DNA of 37,607 bases, from the IMG/VR virus record IMGVR_UViG_2636415906_000005; one strand, 5' to 3'. The notes beneath the pieces are model-generated. The model ran no database searches and was not told the DNA's origin. It was given only the letters and a program-made list of their open reading frames with translations. A program made the translations under genes and the position numbers. Source of the DNA: a virus. Lineage: Duplodnaviria; Heunggongvirae; Uroviricota; Caudoviricetes. This document shows, piece after piece, positions 4,752-34,590 of the stretch (the stretch's first letter is position 1; every line of letters starts with the position of its first letter).

Positions 4752-4809
4752 AAAAACGGCGGCAGAGCAGTCACGGAGTAAAACTGATACCGCCAAACGT
4801 CACCAGAAA
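4752..4809 (-). ncRNA. dicF: DicF small regulatory RNA (antisense regulator of ftsZ and other mRNAs) with intrinsic terminator
   Basis: Reverse complement of 4752-4809 reads TTTCTGGTGACGTTTGGCGGTATCAGTTTTACTCCGTGACTGCTCTGCCGCCGTTTTTA, matching the DicF sequence as I recall it, with a terminal GC hairpin plus U-run; immediately upstream of dicB as in Qin. Ends are approximate. Confidence 0.85.
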
Positions 4810-6478: not shown

Positions 6479-6706
6479 ATGTTTAAATCAGACGTAATTA
6501 ATTTTTACGGTACGAAAGCCAAAGTAGCGAAAGCTGCTGGCGTTGACCCATCTGCTGTTTCTCAATGGCAAGAGCTGGTTCCTGAAGGTCGCGCGATGCG
6601 TCTACAGGAGGCATCTGGCGGCGAGCTTCTGTATGATCCCAAGGTTTATGACGAATATCGTAAGACGAAGCGGGCGGGGCGGTTGAACAATGAAAATCAC
6701 TCCTGA
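6479..6706 (+). CDS. dicC: DicC, Cro-like repressor
   Basis: 75-aa product from the ATG at 6479, preceded by GGAGG (6470-6474); C-terminal part LVPEGRAMRLQEASGGEL.YDPKVYDEYRKTKRAGRLNNENHS matches my recollection of K-12 DicC; divergent from dicA. Confidence 0.8.
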   Translation: MFKSDVINFYGTKAKVAKAAGVDPSAVSQWQELVPEGRAMRLQEASGGELLYDPKVYDEYRKTKRAGRLNNENHS

Positions 6707-7211
6707 ACAGGCTCGTGAGGCTCTGGATGCCTGGATATGTCGACCAGGAATGACACAGGAGCAGGCGACGATATTAATCACTGAAGCATTCTGGGCTTTG
6801 AAAGAGCGCCCGAACATCGATGTTCAGCGTGTCACAGATGAAGGTGGCGCGGTTGATCAGCGAGCGCTTGGCGTTAATCGAGTGAAGATATTCGAACGCT
6901 GGAAGGCTATCGACACTAGGGATAAGCGTGAAAAGTTCACGGCGCTAGTGCCTGCAATTATGGAGGCTATCCGGATTAATGATTTCAGGTTGTATCGTGA
7001 AATTAGTGACGGAAAAAGCATCACGTACATGATCGCCGGGTTAAACAAAGAATATGGCGATGTGGTGGAGTCCGGACTGCTTTTTGCTGATCCTGCCGTA
7101 GTGGATCGTGAAACTGACGAACTTATAGAAAAAGCAATTGCTTTCAAACTTGCGTATCGACAGCAATACAAACAAAAAGCTGGATGGAATTATGAGCCTT
7201 CTTTTTGCTGA
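6690..7211 (+). CDS. Early-right protein, YdaT-like (CII-position regulator/toxin YdaT family)
   Basis: 173-aa ORF overlapping the dicC stop, in the position occupied by cII/ydaT in lambdoid prophages; the family assignment is a loose, memory-based similarity. Confidence 0.45.
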   Translation: MKITPEQAREALDAWICRPGMTQEQATILITEAFWALKERPNIDVQRVTDEGGAVDQRALGVNRVKIFERWKAIDTRDKREKFTALVPAIMEAIRINDFRLYREISDGKSITYMIAGLNKEYGDVVESGLLFADPAVVDRETDELIEKAIAFKLAYRQQYKQKAGWNYEPSFC

Positions 7212-8157
7212 ACGCCCACTGGTTATAAACACACAGCTTGCGATGAAGATTGGCTTAAATGAAGCCATTGTGTTGCAGCAGTTGCATTACTGGTTGAGAG
7301 ATACCAATTCCGGCATGGAATGTGATGGTGTTCGCTGGATTTACAACACAACGGAACAATGGCTGGAACAGTTCCCATTCTGGTCAGAGTCAACGTTAAA
7401 GCGCGCGTTTGCAAGTCTGAAAACGCTGGGGCTTTTGCGTTGTGAAAAGCTCAATAAATCAAAGCGCGATATGACCAATTTCTACACGATCAACTACGGG
7501 AGCGAGCTTTTAGATGGTGGCAAATTGAGCGAATCCATCGGTTTAAAATGCGCCGCTCCATCAGGTCAAAATGACACGATGGAAGAGGTCAAAATGAAAC
7601 GCTCCATTGGTTCAAAACGACCCAATGTCATCGGGTCAAAATGGCCTGATGATCTTACAGAGAATACAACAGAGATTACTACAGAGAATAAAAACACTTT
7701 TCGTCCGGAAGCTTCGCAACCGGACCCGCAGACCGCTGAACAGGATTTTTTAACCCGGAACCCCGACGCGGTTGTGTTTAGTGCGAAAAAACGCCAGTGG
7801 GGTAGCAGGGAGGATTTGGCGTGTGCGCAGTGGATTTGGGGGCGGATCGTGAACCTTTACGAACAGGCTGCCAGCGACGATGGAGAGATCATGCGACCAA
7901 AAGAGCCTAACTGGACAGCCTGGGCCAATGACGTGCGCACAATGCGGATGCTGGATGGCAGAAGCCACAGACAAATTTGCGAAATGTTTGGTCGGGTACA
8001 GCGAGATCAATTCTGGGTAAAAAACATCATGAGCCCGTCAAAACTCCGCGAAAAATGGGACGAACTGGTCATCCGCCTGGGACGTTCACCTGTACAGCGT
8101 TGTATGAATCATATTTCTGAACCGGATACAGAAATTCCGCCTGGTTTCAGAGGATAA
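7192..8157 (+). CDS. Putative phage replication initiation protein (O-like / replisome organizer)
   Basis: About 321-aa ORF from the ATG at 7192 (overlaps the upstream gene end); the N-terminal predicted winged-helix region and the position after the cro/cII-like genes suggest a replication initiator. No DnaC/P-like helicase loader follows. Confidence 0.5.
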   Translation: MSLLFAERPLVINTQLAMKIGLNEAIVLQQLHYWLRDTNSGMECDGVRWIYNTTEQWLEQFPFWSESTLKRAFASLKTLGLLRCEKLNKSKRDMTNFYTINYGSELLDGGKLSESIGLKCAAPSGQNDTMEEVKMKRSIGSKRPNVIGSKWPDDLTENTTEITTENKNTFRPEASQPDPQTAEQDFLTRNPDAVVFSAKKRQWGSREDLACAQWIWGRIVNLYEQAASDDGEIMRPKEPNWTAWANDVRTMRMLDGRSHRQICEMFGRVQRDQFWVKNIMSPSKLREKWDELVIRLGRSPVQRCMNHISEPDTEIPPGFRG

Positions 8158-8197
8158 GTTTTGATTTCAGGTCATGAGGTAATTTTAAGGGGGACTT

Positions 8198-8599
8198 GTG
8201 GCAAAAGTTTTTACACAAGAAGAGCGGGAAAAAATTAAAGGGCAGGTGGTGGAACTCGTGCGCCAGAGCGGTCGTGAGACGTTACGGCAACTGGAAGCTA
8301 AAACAGGTGCGACTAGATATCTGATGAGCGTTCTTGCCAGAGAGCTGGTAGCCAGTGGCGATGTATACAACTCCGGCTACGGGTTATTCCCGTCTGAACA
8401 GGCGCGTAAGGACTGGCAAAACGCCCGCAAAAAACTATCGAGGGCAAAGGTGAAGAAAACAGCTGTGGTTGATCCGGACCTTATCTGGTCGTTACCTGAT
8501 GGAGAAATACGTCGCTACGACAGTCGCCTAAACATAATCTGTCGCGAGTGCCGGATGAGTGAAGTTATGCAGCGCATACTGGCATTTTATCAGGGATAA
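8198..8599 (+). CDS. Hypothetical phage protein (GTG start)
   Basis: 133-aa ORF with normal GC directly after the replication gene; no recognisable motif. Confidence 0.45.
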   Translation: MAKVFTQEEREKIKGQVVELVRQSGRETLRQLEAKTGATRYLMSVLARELVASGDVYNSGYGLFPSEQARKDWQNARKKLSRAKVKKTAVVDPDLIWSLPDGEIRRYDSRLNIICRECRMSEVMQRILAFYQG

Positions 8600-8696
8600 T
8601 GTTAGGTATTTTAGACGTTACTAGATTAAAAAGCATTAGTTCAGGAGTGAATTGACATTCTCATTTTTCATGGCACAGGGTAGATCTGGCGTGGTT

Positions 8697-8720
8697 GTCC
8701 GCTTTGTGCCAGAAGCGGAC
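8697..8720. repeat. Hairpin GTCCGC-N12-GCGGAC (left flank of AT-rich island)
   Basis: 6-bp perfect inverted repeat with a 12-nt loop; the same stem sequence and loop length recur at 10404-10427. Confidence 0.7.
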
Positions 8721-8798
8721 GTTACAATACAATCACTATGCTAATGCGCATTGATATGTGATATAACAATAATCAACCGTTCAAAAAGGAGCATTTAT

Positions 8799-9821
8799 AT
8801 GAGCAGGATGATAATTGATACAAATATTCTTTACTCACTAGTTGGTCTGTCGACAAACCAAAAAATAATTAACTCCCCTATAGATCAATTCAAATTATCC
8901 ATTACGACACCATCACTCATAGAAGTGATCTCTAAATATTGCAATGACTTAGGGGCTGTAAAAAAATGCATTAGCCCAATCATAAACGGAAATATTGAAC
9001 TAATTAGCATTGGTCATACTCCAATCTCAAATGAATTTCTTTATAGGTTGCATTTTTCAGACAAAATAGACGAAGTAAAAGATATTATTGATAATGTTAG
9101 AGCACTAAAAATATCTAGAGAGGCTGAGTTTTATAGGTTCATACTCATACTGGTTGTCTCTGGTTTGTTTGAGGTTATTAGAGAAGATGGATACAAGTTT
9201 GATAACGATGTACAAAATCAAAGTCAACTTAGTCTTGTGCAGACTCTACTTGAATCTAATATGGAATTAATTTTAGACTTCTTTAAAGATGAGTTGCGGA
9301 ATGGATATATTAATGGAAATGAGCAGCAATCAGCTTTGAAAGCTTTTGAAACCATGCTTATCGGACTCCTACATGCTTTTCATGTCAACTATCATATGAT
9401 TAAAACTGACACAGTTAACATTTCCGGAAGCCAAGACAGACTCAAAAATCTGTATGATAGTATAAAAAATGATAATTTTGATAAAAAGTTTAAAAAATAT
9501 ATGGAGAATCCAATATCCCTTGCCTGCAAAAAAAAACACGAATCAGTAGTTGATAACTACCTGAAAGAAATGGAGGAGGGGATTTCTGGCGCTCGTGGGC
9601 TTACTAAGAATTCGTTGAGCTTTCTAATGAGCAAGGTTGAGGATGCATATAAAAATGGTCGTAAATTACGAAAAAATGACATATTTGACTTTCTAATAGT
9701 TATTTCTCTAAATATGCCAGACACTTTGATTTTAACACTTGATAAAGGTTTTTTAAAAGACCTTAAAGATCTTCACCCTAACAGCTATAAAAAGTGTCTG
9801 GATTTCGGTTTTGTAAATTAA
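8799..9821 (+). CDS. Hypothetical 340-aa protein in an AT-rich cargo island; possible split PIN-like nuclease (candidate defense/accessory gene)
   Basis: ATG at 8799 with AAGGAG 7 nt upstream. The N-terminus MSRMIIDTNILYSLVG resembles the first PIN-domain strand with its conserved Asp; the C-terminus NDIFDFLIVISLNMPDTLILTLDKGF resembles the C-terminal PIN acidic motifs. Coding sequence is visibly AT-rich compared with the flanking phage genes (GC not computed). Confidence 0.65.
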   Translation: MSRMIIDTNILYSLVGLSTNQKIINSPIDQFKLSITTPSLIEVISKYCNDLGAVKKCISPIINGNIELISIGHTPISNEFLYRLHFSDKIDEVKDIIDNVRALKISREAEFYRFILILVVSGLFEVIREDGYKFDNDVQNQSQLSLVQTLLESNMELILDFFKDELRNGYINGNEQQSALKAFETMLIGLLHAFHVNYHMIKTDTVNISGSQDRLKNLYDSIKNDNFDKKFKKYMENPISLACKKKHESVVDNYLKEMEEGISGARGLTKNSLSFLMSKVEDAYKNGRKLRKNDIFDFLIVISLNMPDTLILTLDKGFLKDLKDLHPNSYKKCLDFGFVN

Positions 9822-9846
9822 AAATATATTGATGTAAAATAAAACG

Positions 9847-9915
9847 CACCCACATTTAACTTAGCTAGACTATATCCTTCAATTATTCTATCTGCTTTTT
9901 GTTAAATGTGGGGTT
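9847..9915. repeat. Inverted repeat CCCACATTTAAC / GTTAAATGTGGG (12-bp arms, about 45-nt spacer) just downstream of the 340-aa gene
   Basis: Perfect 12-bp arms read directly from the sequence; could form a long stem-loop terminator or structured RNA element. Coordinates approximate. Confidence 0.6.
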
Positions 9916-10403
9916 GCAGATGTTACGAGTCAATTAAATTTGCAAGTCAGGTAGAATTGATAAGAATTGCAATACGAATCCGTGAACATTAATGCTAACG
10001 CTAAGTATACGAAAGATATTGTAAATATACTTCTTTTTTTGTTTTTAAGTTCTTTTATTTGACAGTAGTTCCATCATTCAATTGCGTATTATCTTCCAAT
10101 GCCAGTGACACTCCCTCATTATGAGAGGATTGTGGTAATCAAAAGAAAAATTAATATCACGCCAAGAATATTCGAAACCAACCCTATGGTGTTAAGTCCT
10201 GGTGATGTCATTTAGTTTGCTCTAGGTTTATTATTCAGAAAGCAAAGAATATTCGTTAAATTATTATGTTAGCTTTAATTATTAAAAAACATGTTAATTA
10301 TCATCAAATGAGCACTTATCATCATTTTAGTCAAAGAGGTAGTGAGTATTCATTCTGGATCATAACTGCCTTCCTGTTTACGCTAGTGTTTTTTAAAGTC
10401 GAT

Positions 10404-10427
10404 GTCCGCTCATCGCTCAAAGCGGAC
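10404..10427. repeat. Hairpin GTCCGC-N12-GCGGAC (right flank of AT-rich island)
   Basis: Same 6-bp stem and 12-nt loop architecture as 8697-8720, in direct orientation, at the other end of the AT-rich segment. Confidence 0.7.
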
Positions 10428-10679
10428 TAGAAGGTTAGCTTGTGTCGGACTTTGCGTATTAAATGACTAGTGGTTGAGCCCCATTTCCACAGAAAAAATC
10501 AGAGAAACTATACCCAATAGTTGTATTGAATCACTGACGAGACAGCCTCATATTCATCAGGACTGGTGTACGTCCAATACAGGAGGTTGTGGTGCTGGTT
10601 CTCAAATGTGCGCTGGCTATTACGGCTGTAATGGCGATTTATTGTCTTGCTATTGTTCTTATGGATCGCCTTTCTGACT

Positions 10680-10892
10680 GATTTCACATTGGCGAGGTAA
10701 CGGTAGTTAAGTAGAATGGCTGCGGGTGCTTGAGGCTATCTGCCTCGGGCATGAACACCAACGGCAGATAGAGAAAAGCCCCAGTTAACATTACGCGTCC
10801 TGCAAGACGCTTAACATTAATCTGAGGCCAATTTCATGCTAGACACATGTAGGTTAGCCTCTTACGTGCCGAAAGGCAAGGAGAAGCAGGCT
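10680..10892 (+). promoter_or_regulatory. hok mRNA leader with overlapping mok-like frame (from 10836) and expected Sok-antisense target region
   Basis: Upstream of hokD there is an overlapping ORF starting at 10836 (MLDTCRLASYVPKGKEKQA...), the mok-like arrangement, and a 9-bp inverted repeat CTATCTGCC...GGCAGATAG typical of structured hok leaders. The Sok promoter itself was not pinpointed. Confidence 0.4.
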
Positions 10893-11048
10893 ATGAAGCA
10901 GCAAAAGGCGATGTTAATCGCCCTGATCGTCATCTGTTTAACCGTCATAGTGACGGCACTGGTAACGAGGAAAGACCTCTGCGAGGTACGAATCCGAACC
11001 GGGCAGACGGAGGTCGCTGTCTTCACAGCTTACGAACCTGAGGAGTAA
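10893..11048 (+). CDS. hokD: Hok/Gef family type I toxin HokD (RelF)
   Basis: 51-aa product MKQQKAMLIALIVICLTVIVTALVTRKDLCEVRIRTGQTEVAVFTAYEPEE, which I recognise as HokD/RelF; followed by a fold-back repeat CGAGGGAgaaaTCCCTCG and an intrinsic terminator. Confidence 0.9.
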   Translation: MKQQKAMLIALIVICLTVIVTALVTRKDLCEVRIRTGQTEVAVFTAYEPEE

Positions 11049-11118
11049 GAGACCCGGCGAGGGAGAAATCCCTCGCCACCTCTGATGTGGCAGGCATCCT
11101 CAACGCACCCGCACTTAA

Positions 11119-11140
11119 CCCGCTTCGGCGGGTTTTTGTT
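11119..11140 (+). terminator. Rho-independent terminator after hokD
   Basis: CCCGC-ttcg-GCGGG hairpin followed by TTTTTGTTTTT. Confidence 0.6.
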
Positions 11141-11264
11141 TTTATTTTCAACGCGTTTGAAGTTCTGGACGGTGCCGGAATAGAATCAAAAATACTTAAG
11201 TAGCGCGCAGGGATAAGAGGGATGGTCCCGTAAAGGGGAGAGCTAATTATCCGGAAGGATTCTG

Positions 11265-11516
11265 ATGATGAACATCGAAGAACTGCGTAAAATTTTTTGT
11301 GAAGATGGCCTCTATGCGGTGTGCGTTGAAAATGGAAATCTTGTTAGTCATTACCGCATTATGTGTTTGCGAAAGAATGGGGCTGCGTTAATTAATTTTG
11401 TGGATGGTCGAGTGACAGACGGATTTATCTTGCGCGAAGGTGAGTTTGTCACTTCATTACAGGCACTGAAAGAGATCGGAATAAAAGCAGGCTTTTCAGC
11501 TTTTGCAGAAGAATAA
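11265..11516 (+). CDS. Hypothetical 83-aa protein (Rem-like by size and position next to hokD)
   Basis: ORF MMNIEELRKIFCEDGLYAVC...; K-12 Qin carries an 83-aa rem gene adjacent to hokD, but I cannot confirm sequence identity from memory. Confidence 0.45.
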   Translation: MMNIEELRKIFCEDGLYAVCVENGNLVSHYRIMCLRKNGAALINFVDGRVTDGFILREGEFVTSLQALKEIGIKAGFSAFAEE

Positions 11517-11582
11517 ACTCATCTACAATCTTGCGCGGGGCTGAACTCCCGCTGAGTAACACCGTGCCACCGGAGAAAACCG

Positions 11583-11861
11583 ATGGCACGCAACGTAAAA
11601 TATTACAATTCTGATAATTCGCCCGTTCTTGCCTGCACGCACGAGCGGTATTCTCACGCATTCAAGTCTGAATGGTTCCAACACCCTCCATGCACTGAAG
11701 AGCAGGCTGAATGGATAATTCAGTGTTACCGCAGGCGCGGATACGAGGTTAAGAAAGCCCTTAGTCTCGACTACCGTCACTGGATAATCTCAGTCAGATT
11801 GCCTTACTCCGAACGCCCACCACGTGCGTCCCGCACTTTCCAGCAACGGATCTGGAGGTAA
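11583..11861 (+). CDS. Hypothetical 92-aa protein
   Basis: ORF with protein-like composition upstream of, and overlapping the annotated start of, the DUF968 gene; could alternatively be a frameshifted 5' part of it. Confidence 0.4.
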   Translation: MARNVKYYNSDNSPVLACTHERYSHAFKSEWFQHPPCTEEQAEWIIQCYRRRGYEVKKALSLDYRHWIISVRLPYSERPPRASRTFQQRIWR

Positions 11862-12912
11862 CGTGCGGGTATTACTTAGACCTGTTCTGGTGCCTGAGCT
11901 TGGGCTGGTGGTCCTTAAGCCGGGCCGTGAATCCATACAGATATTTCATAATCCTCGAGTGCTGGTGGAACCGGAACCAAAAAGCATGCGTAATCTGCCA
12001 TCCGGAGTCGTTCCTGCCGTTGGCCAGCCGCTGGCGGAAGACAAAACATTGCTGCCGTTTTTTAGTAACGCACGGGTAATTCGTGCTGCTGGTGGTGCTG
12101 GTGCATTGTCTGACTGGCTGTTGCGCCATATTAAATCCTGCCAGTGGCCACACGGCGATTATCATCACAGCGAAACCGTTATTCACCGTTATGGTACCGG
12201 CGCAATGGTGTTGTGCTGGCACTGCGACAACCAGCTGCGTGACCAGACATCCGAATCACTCGAGCAACTTGCTCATCAAAATCTGTCAGCATGGATGATT
12301 GACGTCATCGGTCACGCAATAAGCGGTACGCAGGAGCGTGAATTATCTCTGGCTGAATTATCCTGGTGGGCGGTCCGCAATCAGGTGGCGGACGCGCTAC
12401 CGGAAGCGGTATTACGTCGTTCGCTGGGGTTGCGTGCGGAAAAAATCCGCTCAATGTACCGTGAAAGCGACATCGTACCGGGAGAGCAGACCGCCACCAG
12501 CATACTGAAACAGCGCACAAAAAATCTTGCGCCGCTGCCTCACGCCCACCAGCAACAGAACCCACCACAGGAAAAGACGGTGGTCAGCATTGCCGTTGAT
12601 CCTGAGTCTCCGGAATCTTTCATGAAACGACCTAAACGTCGCCGCTGGGTTAACGAGAAATACACACGCTGGGTGAAGACACAGCCGTGTGCGTGTTGTG
12701 GTAAGCCAGCCGACGATCCCCATCACCTGATTGGTCATGGTCAGGGCGGAATGGGGACAAAATCTCACGATATTTTCACGCTACCGCTGTGTCGGGAGCA
12801 TCACAACGAGCTTCATGCGGATCCTCTGGCGTTCGAAGAAAAGCATGGTTCTCAGGTTGATTTAATTTTTCGTTTTCTTGATCACGCCTTTGCAACTGGC
12901 GTGCTTGGGTAA
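11824..12912 (+). CDS. ydfU: DUF968 family protein (YdfU-like) with C-terminal HNH-like zinc-binding motif
   Basis: C-terminus CACCGKPADDPHHLIGHGQGGMGTKSHDIFTLPLCREHHNELH carries a CxxC...HH...C..HH..H pattern typical of HNH/DUF968 proteins; this is the position occupied by ydfU in Qin. True start codon uncertain (possibly the Met at 11986). Confidence 0.65.
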   Translation: MRPALSSNGSGGNVRVLLRPVLVPELGLVVLKPGRESIQIFHNPRVLVEPEPKSMRNLPSGVVPAVGQPLAEDKTLLPFFSNARVIRAAGGAGALSDWLLRHIKSCQWPHGDYHHSETVIHRYGTGAMVLCWHCDNQLRDQTSESLEQLAHQNLSAWMIDVIGHAISGTQERELSLAELSWWAVRNQVADALPEAVLRRSLGLRAEKIRSMYRESDIVPGEQTATSILKQRTKNLAPLPHAHQQQNPPQEKTVVSIAVDPESPESFMKRPKRRRWVNEKYTRWVKTQPCACCGKPADDPHHLIGHGQGGMGTKSHDIFTLPLCREHHNELHADPLAFEEKHGSQVDLIFRFLDHAFATGVLG

Positions 12913-14260: not shown

Positions 14261-14336
14261 GGTCCTTTAGCTCAGTGGTGAGAGCGAGCGACTCATAATC
14301 GCCAGGTCGCTGGTTCAAATCCAGCAAGGGCCACCA
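14261..14336 (+). tRNA. tRNA with anticodon CAU, most similar to tRNA-Ile2 (lysidine, ileX/ileZ-like); tRNA-Met not excluded
   Basis: 76-nt cloverleaf folded by hand: acceptor GGTCCTT/AAGGGCC, D-arm TAGCTCAGTGGTGAGAGC, anticodon loop CTCATAA, T-arm GCTGG-TTCAAAT-CCAGC, 3' CCA; resembles my memory of E. coli tRNA-Ile2. Confidence 0.85.
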
Positions 14337-14446: not shown

Positions 14447-14523
14447 GCGTTGTTAGCTCAGCCGGACAGAGCAATTGCCTTCTAAGCAATCGGTCACTGG
14501 TTCGAATCCAGTACAGCGCGCCA
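14447..14523 (+). tRNA. tRNA-Arg (anticodon UCU)
   Basis: 77-nt cloverleaf: acceptor GCGTTGT/ACAGCGC, anticodon stem ATTGC/GCAAT with loop CTTCTAA, T-arm ACTGG-TTCGAAT-CCAGT, 3' GCCA. Confidence 0.85.
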
Positions 14524-14987: not shown

Positions 14988-15520
14988 ATACATATCTGGA
15001 TTATCACCTGTTACGGTAAAAAGTGATTGCTTACTGTTTTTGTGAATGGCATTGCAGCAGCCGGATAATGTCAGTGCTGGCTGACGGTGTGCTGGTGGCG
15101 GGTGTGGTGGTTGTTGCTTTCCCGTTGCTGAAAAAGAAAACGCCAGACTGTTAGCCGGGTATCAGTTAGCGGGAGAAATTTTTAAATACTTCACAATTCA
15201 GGCGGTTGACTGTTCTCTGGTTTGCGGGGAGTTTGTTAAAAGAAACTGGCATGGTGAATCCCCCTGTGCGGAGGGGCAATCAGCGAGTAGGTATATGGGA
15301 TAATCGCGGATTCAGGTGCTGGTACTGAATTCACCGGGAGGCACCCGGCACCATGCACTTCAATAGATTCTCTCCACATTATGGATATTCTTTCAGAATA
15401 TCCCACGCAGACTTTGTGTAAATGTTAACAAATGTGCGTTTTATTTGATCTGATTCGCTGTTTGAGCGTCCAAAACAACGGTATATATAATCCTTTACTA
15501 TATGACATATGTGAGGAAAA

Positions 15521-34009: not shown

Positions 34010-34590
34010 TGGCATTCAGAATGAGTGAACAACCACGGACCATAAAAATTTATAATCTGCTGGTCGGAACTAATGAATTTATTGGTGAAGGTGACGCATA
34101 TATTCCGCCTCATACAGGTCTGCCAGCAAACAGTACCGATATTGCACCACCAGATATTCCTGCTGGCTTTGTGGCTGTTTTCAACAGTGATGAGGCATCG
34201 TGGCATCTCGTTGAAGACCATCGGGGTAAAACGGTTTATGACGTGGCTTCCGGCGACGCGTTATTTATTTCTGAACTCGGCTCATTACCGGAAAATGTCA
34301 CCTGGTTATCCCCGGAAGGGGAGTTTCAGAAGTGGAACGGCACAGCCTGGGTGAAAGATGCAGAAGCAGAAAAACTATTCCGGATCCGGGAGGCGGAAGA
34401 AACAAAAAACAGCCTGATGCAGGCAGCGAATGAGCATATTGCGCCACTTCAGGATGCTGTAGATCTGGAAATCGCAACGGAGGAAGAAAACTCGTTGCTG
34501 GAAGCCTGGAAAAAGTATCGGGTGTTGCTGAACCGTGTTAATACAACAACTGCACCGGATATTGAATGGCCAGTAGCACCTATAGGGTAA
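34009..34590 (+). CDS. tfa: Tail fiber assembly protein (Tfa)
   Basis: 193-aa product; start overlaps the stf stop; C-terminal motif [31 protein letters not shown] is characteristic of Tfa chaperones. Confidence 0.85.

What the first reader, a model, noticed from the sequence alone, without database searches (positions are those of the whole stretch)
10680..11145. Orphan hokD type I toxin locus with no adjacent relBE
HokD is intact and carries the mok-like overlapping frame, leader inverted repeats and a terminator, but the relB-relE genes that neighbour it in K-12 Qin are absent; an AT-rich island lies upstream instead. Whether a functional Sok antisense promoter is present determines if this copy is a live toxin-antitoxin locus or a silenced relic.
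Basis: partly seen in the sequence, partly recalled or inferred. Interest (0 to 1): 0.4.

Follow-up and report, generated by a model that had tools for sequence, protein, structure and literature searches.

The report
Complete prophage hok/sok toxin-antitoxin locus
This is an ordinary, full-length copy of the well-known hok/mok/sok toxin–antisense RNA module carried by a lambda-like prophage; the relBE genes beside it in E. coli K-12 are a later insertion that cut the K-12 copy short, so their absence here is the normal state.

Summary
Window 10689-11143 holds an intact hokD gene (51 aa, identical to K-12 HokD). It also has a 70-codon in-frame mok ORF, a structured leader and a terminator. No relBE lies anywhere in the 37.6-kb window, and AT-rich DNA lies upstream.

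The "orphan" reading is backwards. K-12 homology starts only 14 nt before the hokD ATG. K-12 has lost the hok promoter, leader, mok start and Sok gene to a substitution that carries relBE, as already published. Among 5426 complete E. coli genomes, 1167 have the relE-hokD junction and 4285 have the full leader.

The locus is 100% identical to phage mEp460 and 94% identical to hokW/mokW/sokW of 933W/Sp5, which was shown experimentally to be a working type I toxin-antitoxin. The Sok promoter (TTGCCT-17-TAACCT, minus strand 10879-10851) matches the sokW promoter exactly. Predicted folds reproduce the R1 model: tac/fbi end-pairing in the full-length mRNA, and tac/ucb plus mok-SD/dcb after 3' trimming.

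Verdict: a live-looking but already known module, of low interest.

Side observations:
- The Sok 5' tail is hypervariable among copies.
- A conserved, unannotated 29-aa hydrophobic ORF sits just upstream.
- The AT-rich DNA encodes a rare PIN-like cargo gene.

The parts
10689..10717 (+). hok mRNA promoter: -35 TTGGCG (10689-10694), 17-nt spacer, -10 TAGAAT (10712-10717)
   Evidence: Consensus scan gives 9/12 matches. TAGAAT is kept in 77 of 93 unique related loci. The position aligns with the R1-type hok promoter region.
10724..11140 (+). Full-length hok mRNA (about 417 nt). The +1 is assigned by homology to the R1 GGCGCUUGAGG start.
   Evidence: The Rfam RF01794 model starts at 10724. Supported by the alignment with R1-type and 933W loci and by the terminator at 11117-11134.
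10724..10735 (+). tac (translational activator) element GGGTGCTTGAGG
   Evidence: It pairs with fbi in the minimum-free-energy fold of the full-length RNA. It pairs with ucb when the 3' end is trimmed. It is invariant in 93 related loci, but those loci were collected with a pattern inside tac, so this invariance is partly by ascertainment.
10736..10771 (+). Leader hairpin CTATCTGCC/GGCAGATAG enclosed by the tac stem
   Evidence: Predicted in both the full-length and the truncated folds. It is part of the Rfam model structure.
10776..10784 (+). ucb (anti-SD of mok), AAGCCCCAG
   Evidence: It pairs with the mok SD region 10822-10828 in the full-length fold and with tac 10724-10731 in the truncated fold. 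This is the behaviour described for R1 (PMC9841398).
10774..10844 (-). Sok antisense RNA (about 71 nt): a 15-nt single-stranded 5' tail complementary to the mok start region, then a long hairpin and GGGGCUUUU
   Evidence: Coordinates were transferred from the sokW misc_RNA annotation of phage 933W through the alignment. Fold energy is -28.7 kcal/mol. Expression was not measured.
10851..10879 (-). Sok promoter: -35 TTGCCT (10879-10874), 17-nt spacer, -10 TAACCT (10856-10851)
   Evidence: Window 10852-10881 (minus strand), which spans the -35, the whole spacer and five of the six -10 bases, matches exactly a 30-nt oligonucleotide (YO-597) listed by Takada et al.. The sixth -10 base is also the same in the 933W sequence. 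The sokW promoter mutant loses antitoxin activity. The site aligns with the R1 Sok promoter TTGCGC-17-TATCCT. The spacer is 17 nt in 92 of 93 loci.
10824..10827 (+). mok Shine-Dalgarno GAGG
   Evidence: Sequestered by ucb in the full-length fold and paired with dcb in the truncated fold. Conserved.
10836..11048 (+). mok ORF (70 codons, in frame with hok, same stop codon)
   Evidence: The ATG is kept in 92 of 93 loci and the ORF is intact in 81 of 93. The exact protein belongs to a 900-member cluster named Hok/Gef family.
10857..10861 (+). dcb (downstream complementary box) GCCTC
   Evidence: It pairs with the mok SD GAGGC 10824-10828 in all truncated-mRNA folds with a 3' end at 11085-11092.
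10893..11048 (+). hokD toxin CDS (51 aa), with SD GGAG at 10880-10883
   Evidence: PF01848 at E=1.2e-23. phrog_251 at E=2.8e-33. Identical to K-12 HokD.
11056..11077 (+). 3' UTR stem-loop GGCGAGGGA-GAAA-TCCCTCGCC, the likely protective 3' end of the processed mRNA
   Evidence: Predicted in the full-length fold. It aligns with the R1 3' stem-loop. The role is inferred from R1 (PMC9841398).
11098..11110 (+). fbi (fold-back inhibitory) element CCTCAACGCACCC
   Evidence: 12 bp with tac and one bulge; duplex energy -21.5 kcal/mol. Kept in related loci. The R1-type locus has a changed but still complementary pair, GGCGC/GCGCC.
11117..11143 (+). Intrinsic terminator AACCCGC-TTCG-GCGGGTT followed by a T-run
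   Evidence: Also present downstream of K-12 hokD.

Best explanation
Window 10689-11143 is a complete hok/mok/sok type I toxin-antitoxin module of the hokD/hokW lineage. It is carried in the early-right region of an mEp460-like (Qin-type) lambdoid prophage integrated next to rspAB.

Inferred mechanism, as in plasmid R1:
1. A moderate promoter makes a stable ~417-nt hok mRNA. Its 5' tac element pairs with the 3' fbi element, and ucb masks the mok ribosome-binding site. The full-length RNA is therefore neither translated nor bound by Sok.
2. Slow 3' trimming removes fbi. tac then pairs with ucb, and the mok SD/dcb hairpin forms. The RNA becomes both translatable and a target for Sok.
3. The unstable ~71-nt Sok RNA is made from its own promoter on the opposite strand. 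It pairs with the mok start region, blocks mok translation and hence the coupled hok translation, and triggers RNase III cleavage.
4. When Sok transcription stops, whether by loss of the element, prophage induction or host shut-off, the processed hok mRNA is translated and the 51-aa membrane toxin depolarises the cell.

Shown here: every sequence element is present and intact, and the two alternative folds are predicted. Shown by others for the 94%-identical hokW/sokW: toxicity, Sok-promoter-dependent protection, Sok loss and HokW production on mitomycin C induction, and a two-fold gain in phage release. Inferred: that this copy behaves in the same way.

The K-12 hokD next to relBE is a 5'-truncated derivative of this arrangement.
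For: Identity of the locus:
- Hok/Gef domain and PHROG 'MokW-like host killing'.
- Rfam RF01794 at 115 bits, gathering score 59.
- 100% identity to phage mEp460 and 94% to 933W hokW/mokW/sokW, which carries an annotated SokW RNA.
- Element-by-element alignment with an R1-type hok/sok locus.

Regulatory elements:
- hok promoter found by the scan.
- The Sok promoter region matches exactly the 30-nt oligonucleotide YO-597 listed for the experimentally validated sokW.
- Full-length minimum-free-energy fold has tac/fbi plus ucb/mok-SD. Truncated folds have tac/ucb plus mok-SD/dcb. This is the scheme described for R1 (PMC9841398).

Conservation:
- The hok ORF is intact in 91 of 93 unique related copies, the mok ATG is kept in 92 of 93, and the Sok promoter spacer is 17 nt in 92 of 93.
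- A compensatory change occurs in hairpin 10867-70/10875-78.

Derived state of K-12:
- K-12 homology starts at window 10879.
- relE-hokD junction in 1167 genomes against the full leader in 4285 of 5426.
- Published statement that relBE integration truncated hokD (PMC6379469). relBEF is cotranscribed (PMC5120126).
Against: - No expression data exist for this copy.
- The Sok promoter is weak by consensus: TTGCCT/TAACCT scores 7/12 and is not listed by the generic scan. The classical R1 Sok promoter scores 8/12 and would also fail that scan.
- The Sok terminator U-tract is short (UUUU then CUCU).
- The truncated-mRNA fold depends on where the 3' end is placed. An end at 11094-11100 gives other structures.
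[quoted passage not shown] An intact sequence does not guarantee that phenotype.
- The Sok tail differs from sokW at 6 of about 20 nt, so quantitative behaviour may differ.
Confidence: 0.88

Rival explanations
1. The locus looks intact but is a functionally silent relic. All elements are present, yet the module neither kills on loss or shut-off nor affects the phage, as was concluded for several chromosomal hok loci.
For: As summarised, native chromosomal hokA, hokB and hokC loci did not mediate post-segregational killing and were not rifampicin-activated. The Sok and hok promoters are only moderate matches to consensus. Tyr47 (TAC, 11031-11033) may need A-to-I editing to Cys for full toxicity, as reported for the hok family.
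Against: The locus is 100% identical to the copy in phage mEp460, a deposited phage genome record. The Hok protein is nearly invariant across about 93 unique copies, with pairwise differences of 0.032 over the CDS and 0.036 at third codon positions. The close homologue hokW/sokW is toxic, is protected by Sok and affects phage release. The HokD coding sequence is toxic when expressed.
Confidence: 0.1
2. One reading: this is an unusual orphan hokD that has lost, or never gained, its normal relBE partners, so its regulation is in doubt.
For: In K-12 and 1167 of 5426 genomes, hokD lies directly downstream of relE and is cotranscribed with relBE.
Against: K-12 hokD lacks everything upstream of its SD, whereas this copy has the full leader, which is shared with R1, 933W and 4285 of 5426 E. 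coli genomes. The literature describes relBE as a horizontally acquired insertion that truncated hokD. The slot upstream of hok holds at least 62 different sequence clusters in 137 loci, and relBE is only one of them.
Confidence: 0.02

Closest known systems
hokW/mokW/sokW of Stx2 phage 933W / Sakai prophage 5 (AF125520; Takada et al. 2021, PMC8621323)
   Same: 94% DNA identity over the module. Same order of elements and the same in-frame 70-codon mok. The Sok -35, spacer and -10 are identical. tac and fbi are the same. It is also carried by a lambdoid prophage.
   Different: The Hok C-terminus differs (…FTAYEPEE here, …FVDYESEK in HokW). The Sok 5' tail and mok start differ at 6 of about 20 nt. 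This copy has a clear intrinsic terminator after fbi, while the 933W sequence diverges there. The position in the phage genome differs: here it lies between the replication genes and rem/ydfU/rusA/Q.
hok/mok/sok (parB) of plasmid R1 and IncF relatives
   Same: All named regulatory elements can be aligned or predicted: tac, ucb, mok SD, dcb, fbi, the Sok promoter position with its 17-nt spacer, and the 3' stem-loop. It belongs to the same Rfam family.
   Different: About 47% identity over the 500-nt stretch compared. Takada et al. give 44% protein identity between HokW and R1 Hok. There is a 16-19-nt extension of the Sok terminator / sokT hairpin. The tac/fbi sequences are changed but remain complementary. 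The carrier is a prophage, not a plasmid.
hokD (relF) of the relBEF operon, Qin prophage, E. coli K-12
   Same: Identical HokD protein. Same 3' UTR, fbi and terminator, and the same downstream genes rem, ydfU and Q. Same chromosomal attachment site next to rspAB.
   Different: K-12 lacks the hok promoter, tac, ucb, mok start, Sok gene and dcb. relE ends 71 nt upstream of hokD, and the gene is read from the relBE promoter.

Membership tests
[quoted passage not shown] | Small Hok/Gef-family membrane toxin ORF (about 50 aa) | tested here: met
   PF01848 at 82.9 bits against a cut-off of 22. phrog_251 at E=2.8e-33.
[quoted passage not shown] | Overlapping upstream mok reading frame with its own SD, through which hok is translated | tested here: met
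   70-codon ORF 10836-11048 with GAGG at 10824-10827. Conserved in 81-92 of 93 copies. Translational coupling itself cannot be tested here.
[quoted passage not shown] | cis-encoded antisense Sok RNA with its own promoter, overlapping the mok translation-initiation region | tested here: met
   The promoter is at the position of the R1 and sokW promoters and is identical in sequence to the sokW promoter. Window 10852-10881 matches the published 30-nt oligonucleotide YO-597 exactly. The predicted 71-nt RNA has a 5' tail and a hairpin. Transcription was not measured.
[quoted passage not shown] | Long-range 5'-3' pairing (tac/fbi) in the full-length mRNA | tested here: met
   12 bp in the minimum-free-energy structure; duplex energy -21.5 kcal/mol. 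Complementarity is kept, with changed bases, in the R1-type locus.
[quoted passage not shown] | Alternative fold after 3' processing: tac/ucb stem and mok-SD/dcb hairpin | tested here: met
   Predicted for 3' ends at 11085-11092. It is not the minimum-free-energy fold for ends at 11094-11100, so support rests on prediction and depends on the end chosen.
[quoted passage not shown] | Match to the curated covariance model of the hok leader / sok region (Rfam RF01794) | tested here: met
   115.3 bits against a gathering score of 59, full model length 1-157.
[quoted passage not shown] | Killing when Sok synthesis stops (post-segregational or rifampicin-induced killing) | not testable with these tools
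   Requires experiments. Shown for the homologue hokW/sokW after Sok promoter mutation and mitomycin C treatment.
K-12-type relBEF operon (hokD as third gene of relBE) | relB and relE immediately upstream of hokD, with the hok leader absent | tested here: not met
   No relBE in the window. A full leader is present instead.

The most novel reading that the evidence does not exclude
The 22-nt stretch that encodes the Sok 5' tail and the mok initiation region (10829-10850) may be a specificity cassette under diversifying selection. Among phage-borne hokD/hokW copies it differs about ten times more than hok third codon positions and falls into at least 25 discrete alleles, while the toxin stays nearly invariant. 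This would let several co-resident prophages each keep a private, non-cross-protecting addiction or induction-timing module. A second possibility is that the conserved 29-aa hydrophobic ORF fixed 136 nt upstream of the hok leader is a second small membrane toxin or a partner protein of this module.
Probability: 0.25. Interest if true: 0.45.

Novelty: already known. Interest (0 to 1): 0.12.

Why it matters
For the finding as posed, the value is corrective. The K-12 reference arrangement (relB-relE-hokD) is the exception, and annotating full-length prophage copies as 'hokD' invites the wrong expectation. Full-length hokD/hokW-type modules are present in about 79% of complete E. coli genomes, often in several copies. 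Their biology (prophage addiction, timing of lysis at induction, or abortive infection) therefore matters for how polylysogens behave, but the module itself is textbook.

The side observations would need experiments before they count as discoveries. They are the hypervariable Sok recognition tail, the linked unannotated 29-aa membrane ORF, and a very variable cargo slot upstream that here holds a rare PIN-like gene.

Tried and rejected
- relBE elsewhere in the window: tblastn and blastn with K-12 RelB, RelE and relBE DNA gave only chance-level hits.
- The generic sigma-70 scan did not list the Sok promoter. I did not treat this as evidence of absence, because the established R1 Sok promoter (TTGCGC-17-TATCCT, 8/12) would also fail that threshold, and the sokW promoter with the same sequence is functional.
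- My first guess placed ucb at 10857-10870. This was wrong. The literature and the folds place ucb at 10776-10784 and dcb at 10857-10861.
- Truncated-mRNA folding with 3' ends at 11094-11100 did not give the open conformation.
- Test of whether co-resident copies always carry different Sok tails: all 9 within-genome pairs differ. The random expectation is about 0.85 per pair, so this is not significant.
- RNAalifold on the leader of the upstream 29-aa ORF found only one-sided changes and no compensatory pairs, so no structure claim is made.
- The 29-aa ORF and the 340-aa AT-rich ORF gave no hits in Pfam, PHROGs or PADLOC.
- A profile search of the 340-aa family against PDB sequences gave nothing below E=0.2. 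Foldseek gave no match with E<=0.001.
- A literature search found no report of Sok-tail hypervariability in prophage hok loci.

Full report
**What is there**

The window is a lambdoid prophage. It is 100% identical over the queried 821 bp (window 10440-11260) to E. coli ACN002 (NZ_CP007491), where the element lies next to rspA-rspB, the attachment site of Qin in K-12. Of the first 25 kb, 62% matches phage mEp460 at 97% identity.

The gene order around the finding is:
- integrase, xis, exo, dicB, DicF (4757-4808, minus strand)
- repressor and cro, YdaT, a replication protein, DUF977
- an AT-rich 340-aa ORF
- hokD, rem, ydfU (DUF968), rusA, Q, two tRNAs
- lysis genes and terminase

**Check of the observation**

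- The hokD CDS (10893-11048) is intact. It encodes the same 51-aa protein as K-12 HokD and matches PF01848 at 82.9 bits and phrog_251 'MokW-like host killing'.
- A 70-codon ORF (10836-11048) starts 57 nt upstream, in frame, and ends at the same stop. The R1-type locus has the same arrangement.
- Rfam RF01794 matches 10724-10898 on the plus strand at 115 bits against a gathering score of 59. The model consensus runs from the tac sequence to the hok ATG. It therefore represents the hok leader in sense orientation, not the Sok strand.
- An intrinsic terminator lies at 11117-11134.
- K-12 RelB, RelE and relBE DNA find nothing beyond chance anywhere in the 37.6 kb.
- G+C falls to 0.29-0.36 between about 8650 and 10450.

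All parts of the observation are confirmed.

**Why 'orphan' is the wrong frame**

Homology between K-12 and the window begins at window 10879, 14 nt before the hokD ATG. A window-wide comparison shows K-12 matching window 6578-6969 and then 10879-12912. The K-12 segment ydfW-flxA-ydfV-relB-relE (L002 1933-4000) replaces window 6970-10878.

K-12 hokD has therefore lost its promoter, tac, ucb, mok start, Sok gene and dcb. It keeps only the SD, the CDS, the 3' UTR, fbi and the terminator. The literature already says this:
- relBEF is cotranscribed (PMC5120126).

Among 5426 complete E. coli genomes, the relE-hokD junction is present in 1167. The full leader (at least 80% of window 10700-10900) is present in 4285, at 9370 places in all, with up to nine per genome. 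The arrangement without relBE is the common and ancestral one.

**Is Sok there?**

The locus is 100% identical to the copy in phage mEp460. It is 94% identical to hokW/mokW/sokW of phage 933W, whose GenBank record annotates a SokW antisense RNA.

Transferring that annotation through the alignment gives Sok as 10844 to 10774 on the minus strand (71 nt). The promoter has -35 TTGCCT (10879-10874), a 17-nt spacer and -10 TAACCT (10856-10851).

Takada et al. (PMC8621323) showed four things for hokW/sokW:
- HokW is toxic.
- The native sokW gene protects against it.
- Mutating the sokW -10 removes protection, and sokW supplied in trans restores it partly.
- sokW RNA disappears and HokW accumulates after mitomycin C, and deletion of the locus halves phage release.

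Their 30-nt oligonucleotide YO-597, which spans the -35, the spacer and five of the six -10 bases, matches window 10852-10881 (minus strand) exactly. The R1-type Sok promoter (TTGCGC-17-TATCCT) aligns at the same columns.

The generic promoter scan does not list this site, because TAACCT scores only 3/6. The R1 Sok promoter would fail that scan too, so this is not informative.

The predicted Sok RNA has a 15-nt unpaired 5' tail, a long hairpin and GGGGCUUUU. Relative to the Rfam consensus and to R1, the hairpin carries a 16-19-nt extension.

**Does the mRNA have the R1 switch?**

ViennaRNA on 10724-11140 gives a minimum-free-energy fold of -174 kcal/mol. In this fold tac (10724-10735) pairs with fbi (11098-11110; 12 bp with one bulge), and ucb (10778-10784) pairs with the mok SD region (10822-10828).

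With the 3' end placed at 11085-11092, the fold changes. tac (10724-10731) pairs with ucb (10776-10782), and the mok SD GAGGC (10824-10828) pairs with dcb GCCTC (10857-10861). These are the closed and open conformations described for R1 (PMC9841398).

With ends at 11094-11100 other folds win, including the tac-proximal hairpin that resembles the described metastable structure. The prediction is therefore supportive but depends on the end chosen.

A 3' stem-loop at 11056-11077 aligns with the R1 protective stem-loop. The R1-type locus has different but still complementary tac/fbi sequences.

**Conservation**

I collected phage-borne copies from IMG/VR, giving 98 unique 500-nt loci, 93 of them at least 70% identical to the window. 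In these 93:
- The Hok protein is nearly invariant. 46 of 93 are identical to the window, and only two are disrupted.
- The mok ATG is kept in 92.
- The Sok -35 is TTGCCT in 75 and TTGACC in 18. The latter goes with a compensatory change in hairpin 10867-70/10875-78.
- The -10 is TAACCT in 70 and TAATCT in 11.
- The spacer is 17 nt in 92.

Conservation starts near 10689-10703 and ends near 11138, which gives the module boundaries.

**Verdict on the finding**

This is a full-length, apparently functional member of a textbook family. It is identical to a copy in a deposited phage genome (mEp460) and nearly identical to an experimentally characterised one. Nothing about the absence of relBE needs explaining.

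What cannot be settled here is the phenotype. [quoted passage not shown] The only demonstrated role for a prophage copy is help with lysis and phage release at induction.

I put 0.88 on 'a complete hok/mok/sok module working as in R1 and hokW'. I put about 0.1 on 'intact but phenotypically silent' and about 0.02 on the orphan reading.

**Things seen on the way**

(a) Hypervariable Sok tail. The 22 nt encoding the Sok 5' tail and mok initiation region (10829-10850) are far more variable than anything else in the module. Mean pairwise difference is 0.34, against 0.036 at hok third codon positions and 0.05-0.11 elsewhere. At least 25 discrete alleles were seen. The window and sokW differ at 6 of about 20 tail positions. 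All nine within-genome pairs I could sample carry different alleles, but random pairing would give that about a quarter of the time. I found no report of this in the library.

(b) A conserved small ORF. Immediately upstream, 10592-10681 encodes a 29-aa hydrophobic peptide, MLVLKCALAITAVMAIYCLAIVLMDRLSD, preceded by AGGAGG.
- It is intact in 115 of 115 IMG/VR instances and has no indels.
- Variable sites favour third codon positions (10, against 5 and 4).
- In at least 108 of 116 instances it is followed by hok at a fixed distance (136 nt from its start codon to the tac pattern where that pattern is present).
- PGAP does not annotate it under the matches examined, and it has no family match.

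(c) The AT-rich island. It is one ORF (8799-9821, 340 aa) with only 26 homologues in the 5.8-billion-protein set and no Pfam, PHROG or PADLOC match. A confident AlphaFold model (pLDDT 91) gives only weak Foldseek matches (E>0.6). These matches are repeatedly PIN-domain nucleases. The invariant D7, E42, D294/D297 and D315 fit a split PIN fold with a large helical insertion.

(d) A cargo hotspot. The 1.5 kb upstream of hok falls into 62 unrelated clusters in 137 loci. K-12's relBE is one occupant of this slot.

Noticed in passing
window 10829-10850 (both strands): The Sok 5' tail / mok initiation region is hypervariable among phage-borne hokD/hokW copies. Mean pairwise difference is 0.34, against 0.036 at hok third codon positions. 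At least 25 discrete alleles were seen while the toxin is nearly invariant. This may be a specificity determinant that lets several copies coexist. All 9 co-resident pairs sampled differ, but that is not statistically significant.
   Followed up: partly
window 10592-10681 (+), SD at 10581-10586; conserved block 10402-10681: An unannotated 29-aa hydrophobic ORF (MLVLKCALAITAVMAIYCLAIVLMDRLSD) with a strong SD. It is intact in 115 of 115 IMG/VR instances and is followed by hok at a fixed distance (136 nt to the tac pattern) in at least 108 of 116. It has no Pfam, PHROG or PADLOC match and is called only 'hypothetical protein' in a few genomes. It could be a small membrane protein or a second toxin-like peptide.
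   Followed up: partly
window 8799-9821 (+): The AT-rich island (G+C about 0.31) is one 340-aa ORF of a rare family: 26 homologues, found in E. coli, Serratia, Enterobacter and Proteus, with no family match. The AlphaFold2 model has pLDDT 91. It gives weak but repeated Foldseek matches to PIN/VapC/Utp24 nucleases. Invariant D7, T8, N9, E42, D294, D297 and D315 suggest a split PIN domain with a helical insertion of about 220 aa. It is a candidate defence or toxin cargo gene.
   Followed up: partly
window about 8650-10400, compared with loci L006-L227: The slot between the replication genes and hok is a cargo hotspot. The 1.5 kb upstream of hok falls into 62 unrelated sequence clusters in 137 loci. 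mEp460 has a different 449-aa reverse-strand gene there, and K-12 has ydfW-flxA-ydfV-relBE.
   Followed up: partly
window 10867-10878: The small hairpin TGCC-GAAA-GGCA just upstream of the hok SD shows a two-pair compensatory change (GACC…GGTC) in other copies. The same change turns the Sok -35 from TTGCCT into TTGACC.
   Followed up: partly
window 11031-11034: The Tyr47 codon of hokD is TAC followed by G. This is the UACG context reported for TadA A-to-I editing, which recodes Tyr to Cys in hok-family mRNAs (bioRxiv 10.1101/2025.08.07.668861).
   Followed up: no
window 11057-11138 (+): The hok 3' UTR plus terminator gives a sub-threshold match to the Salmonella prophage sRNA family isrK (RF01394, 25.7 bits, gathering score 50, E=0.0025).
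   Followed up: no
window 10724-10898 (+): The Rfam family RF01794, named 'sok antitoxin', matches the hok-sense strand from tac to the hok ATG. The real Sok RNA is on the opposite strand, so strand calls from this model are misleading.
   Followed up: yes
window 4757-4808 (-), 15220-15410 (+), 34352-34550 (+), 14261-14336 and 14447-14523 (+): Other RNA features of the prophage: DicF sRNA, STnc100, IS009, and two tRNA genes downstream of Q. One has anticodon CAU, called Met by ARAGORN and Ile by PGAP. The other is tRNA-Arg with anticodon UCU.
   Followed up: no
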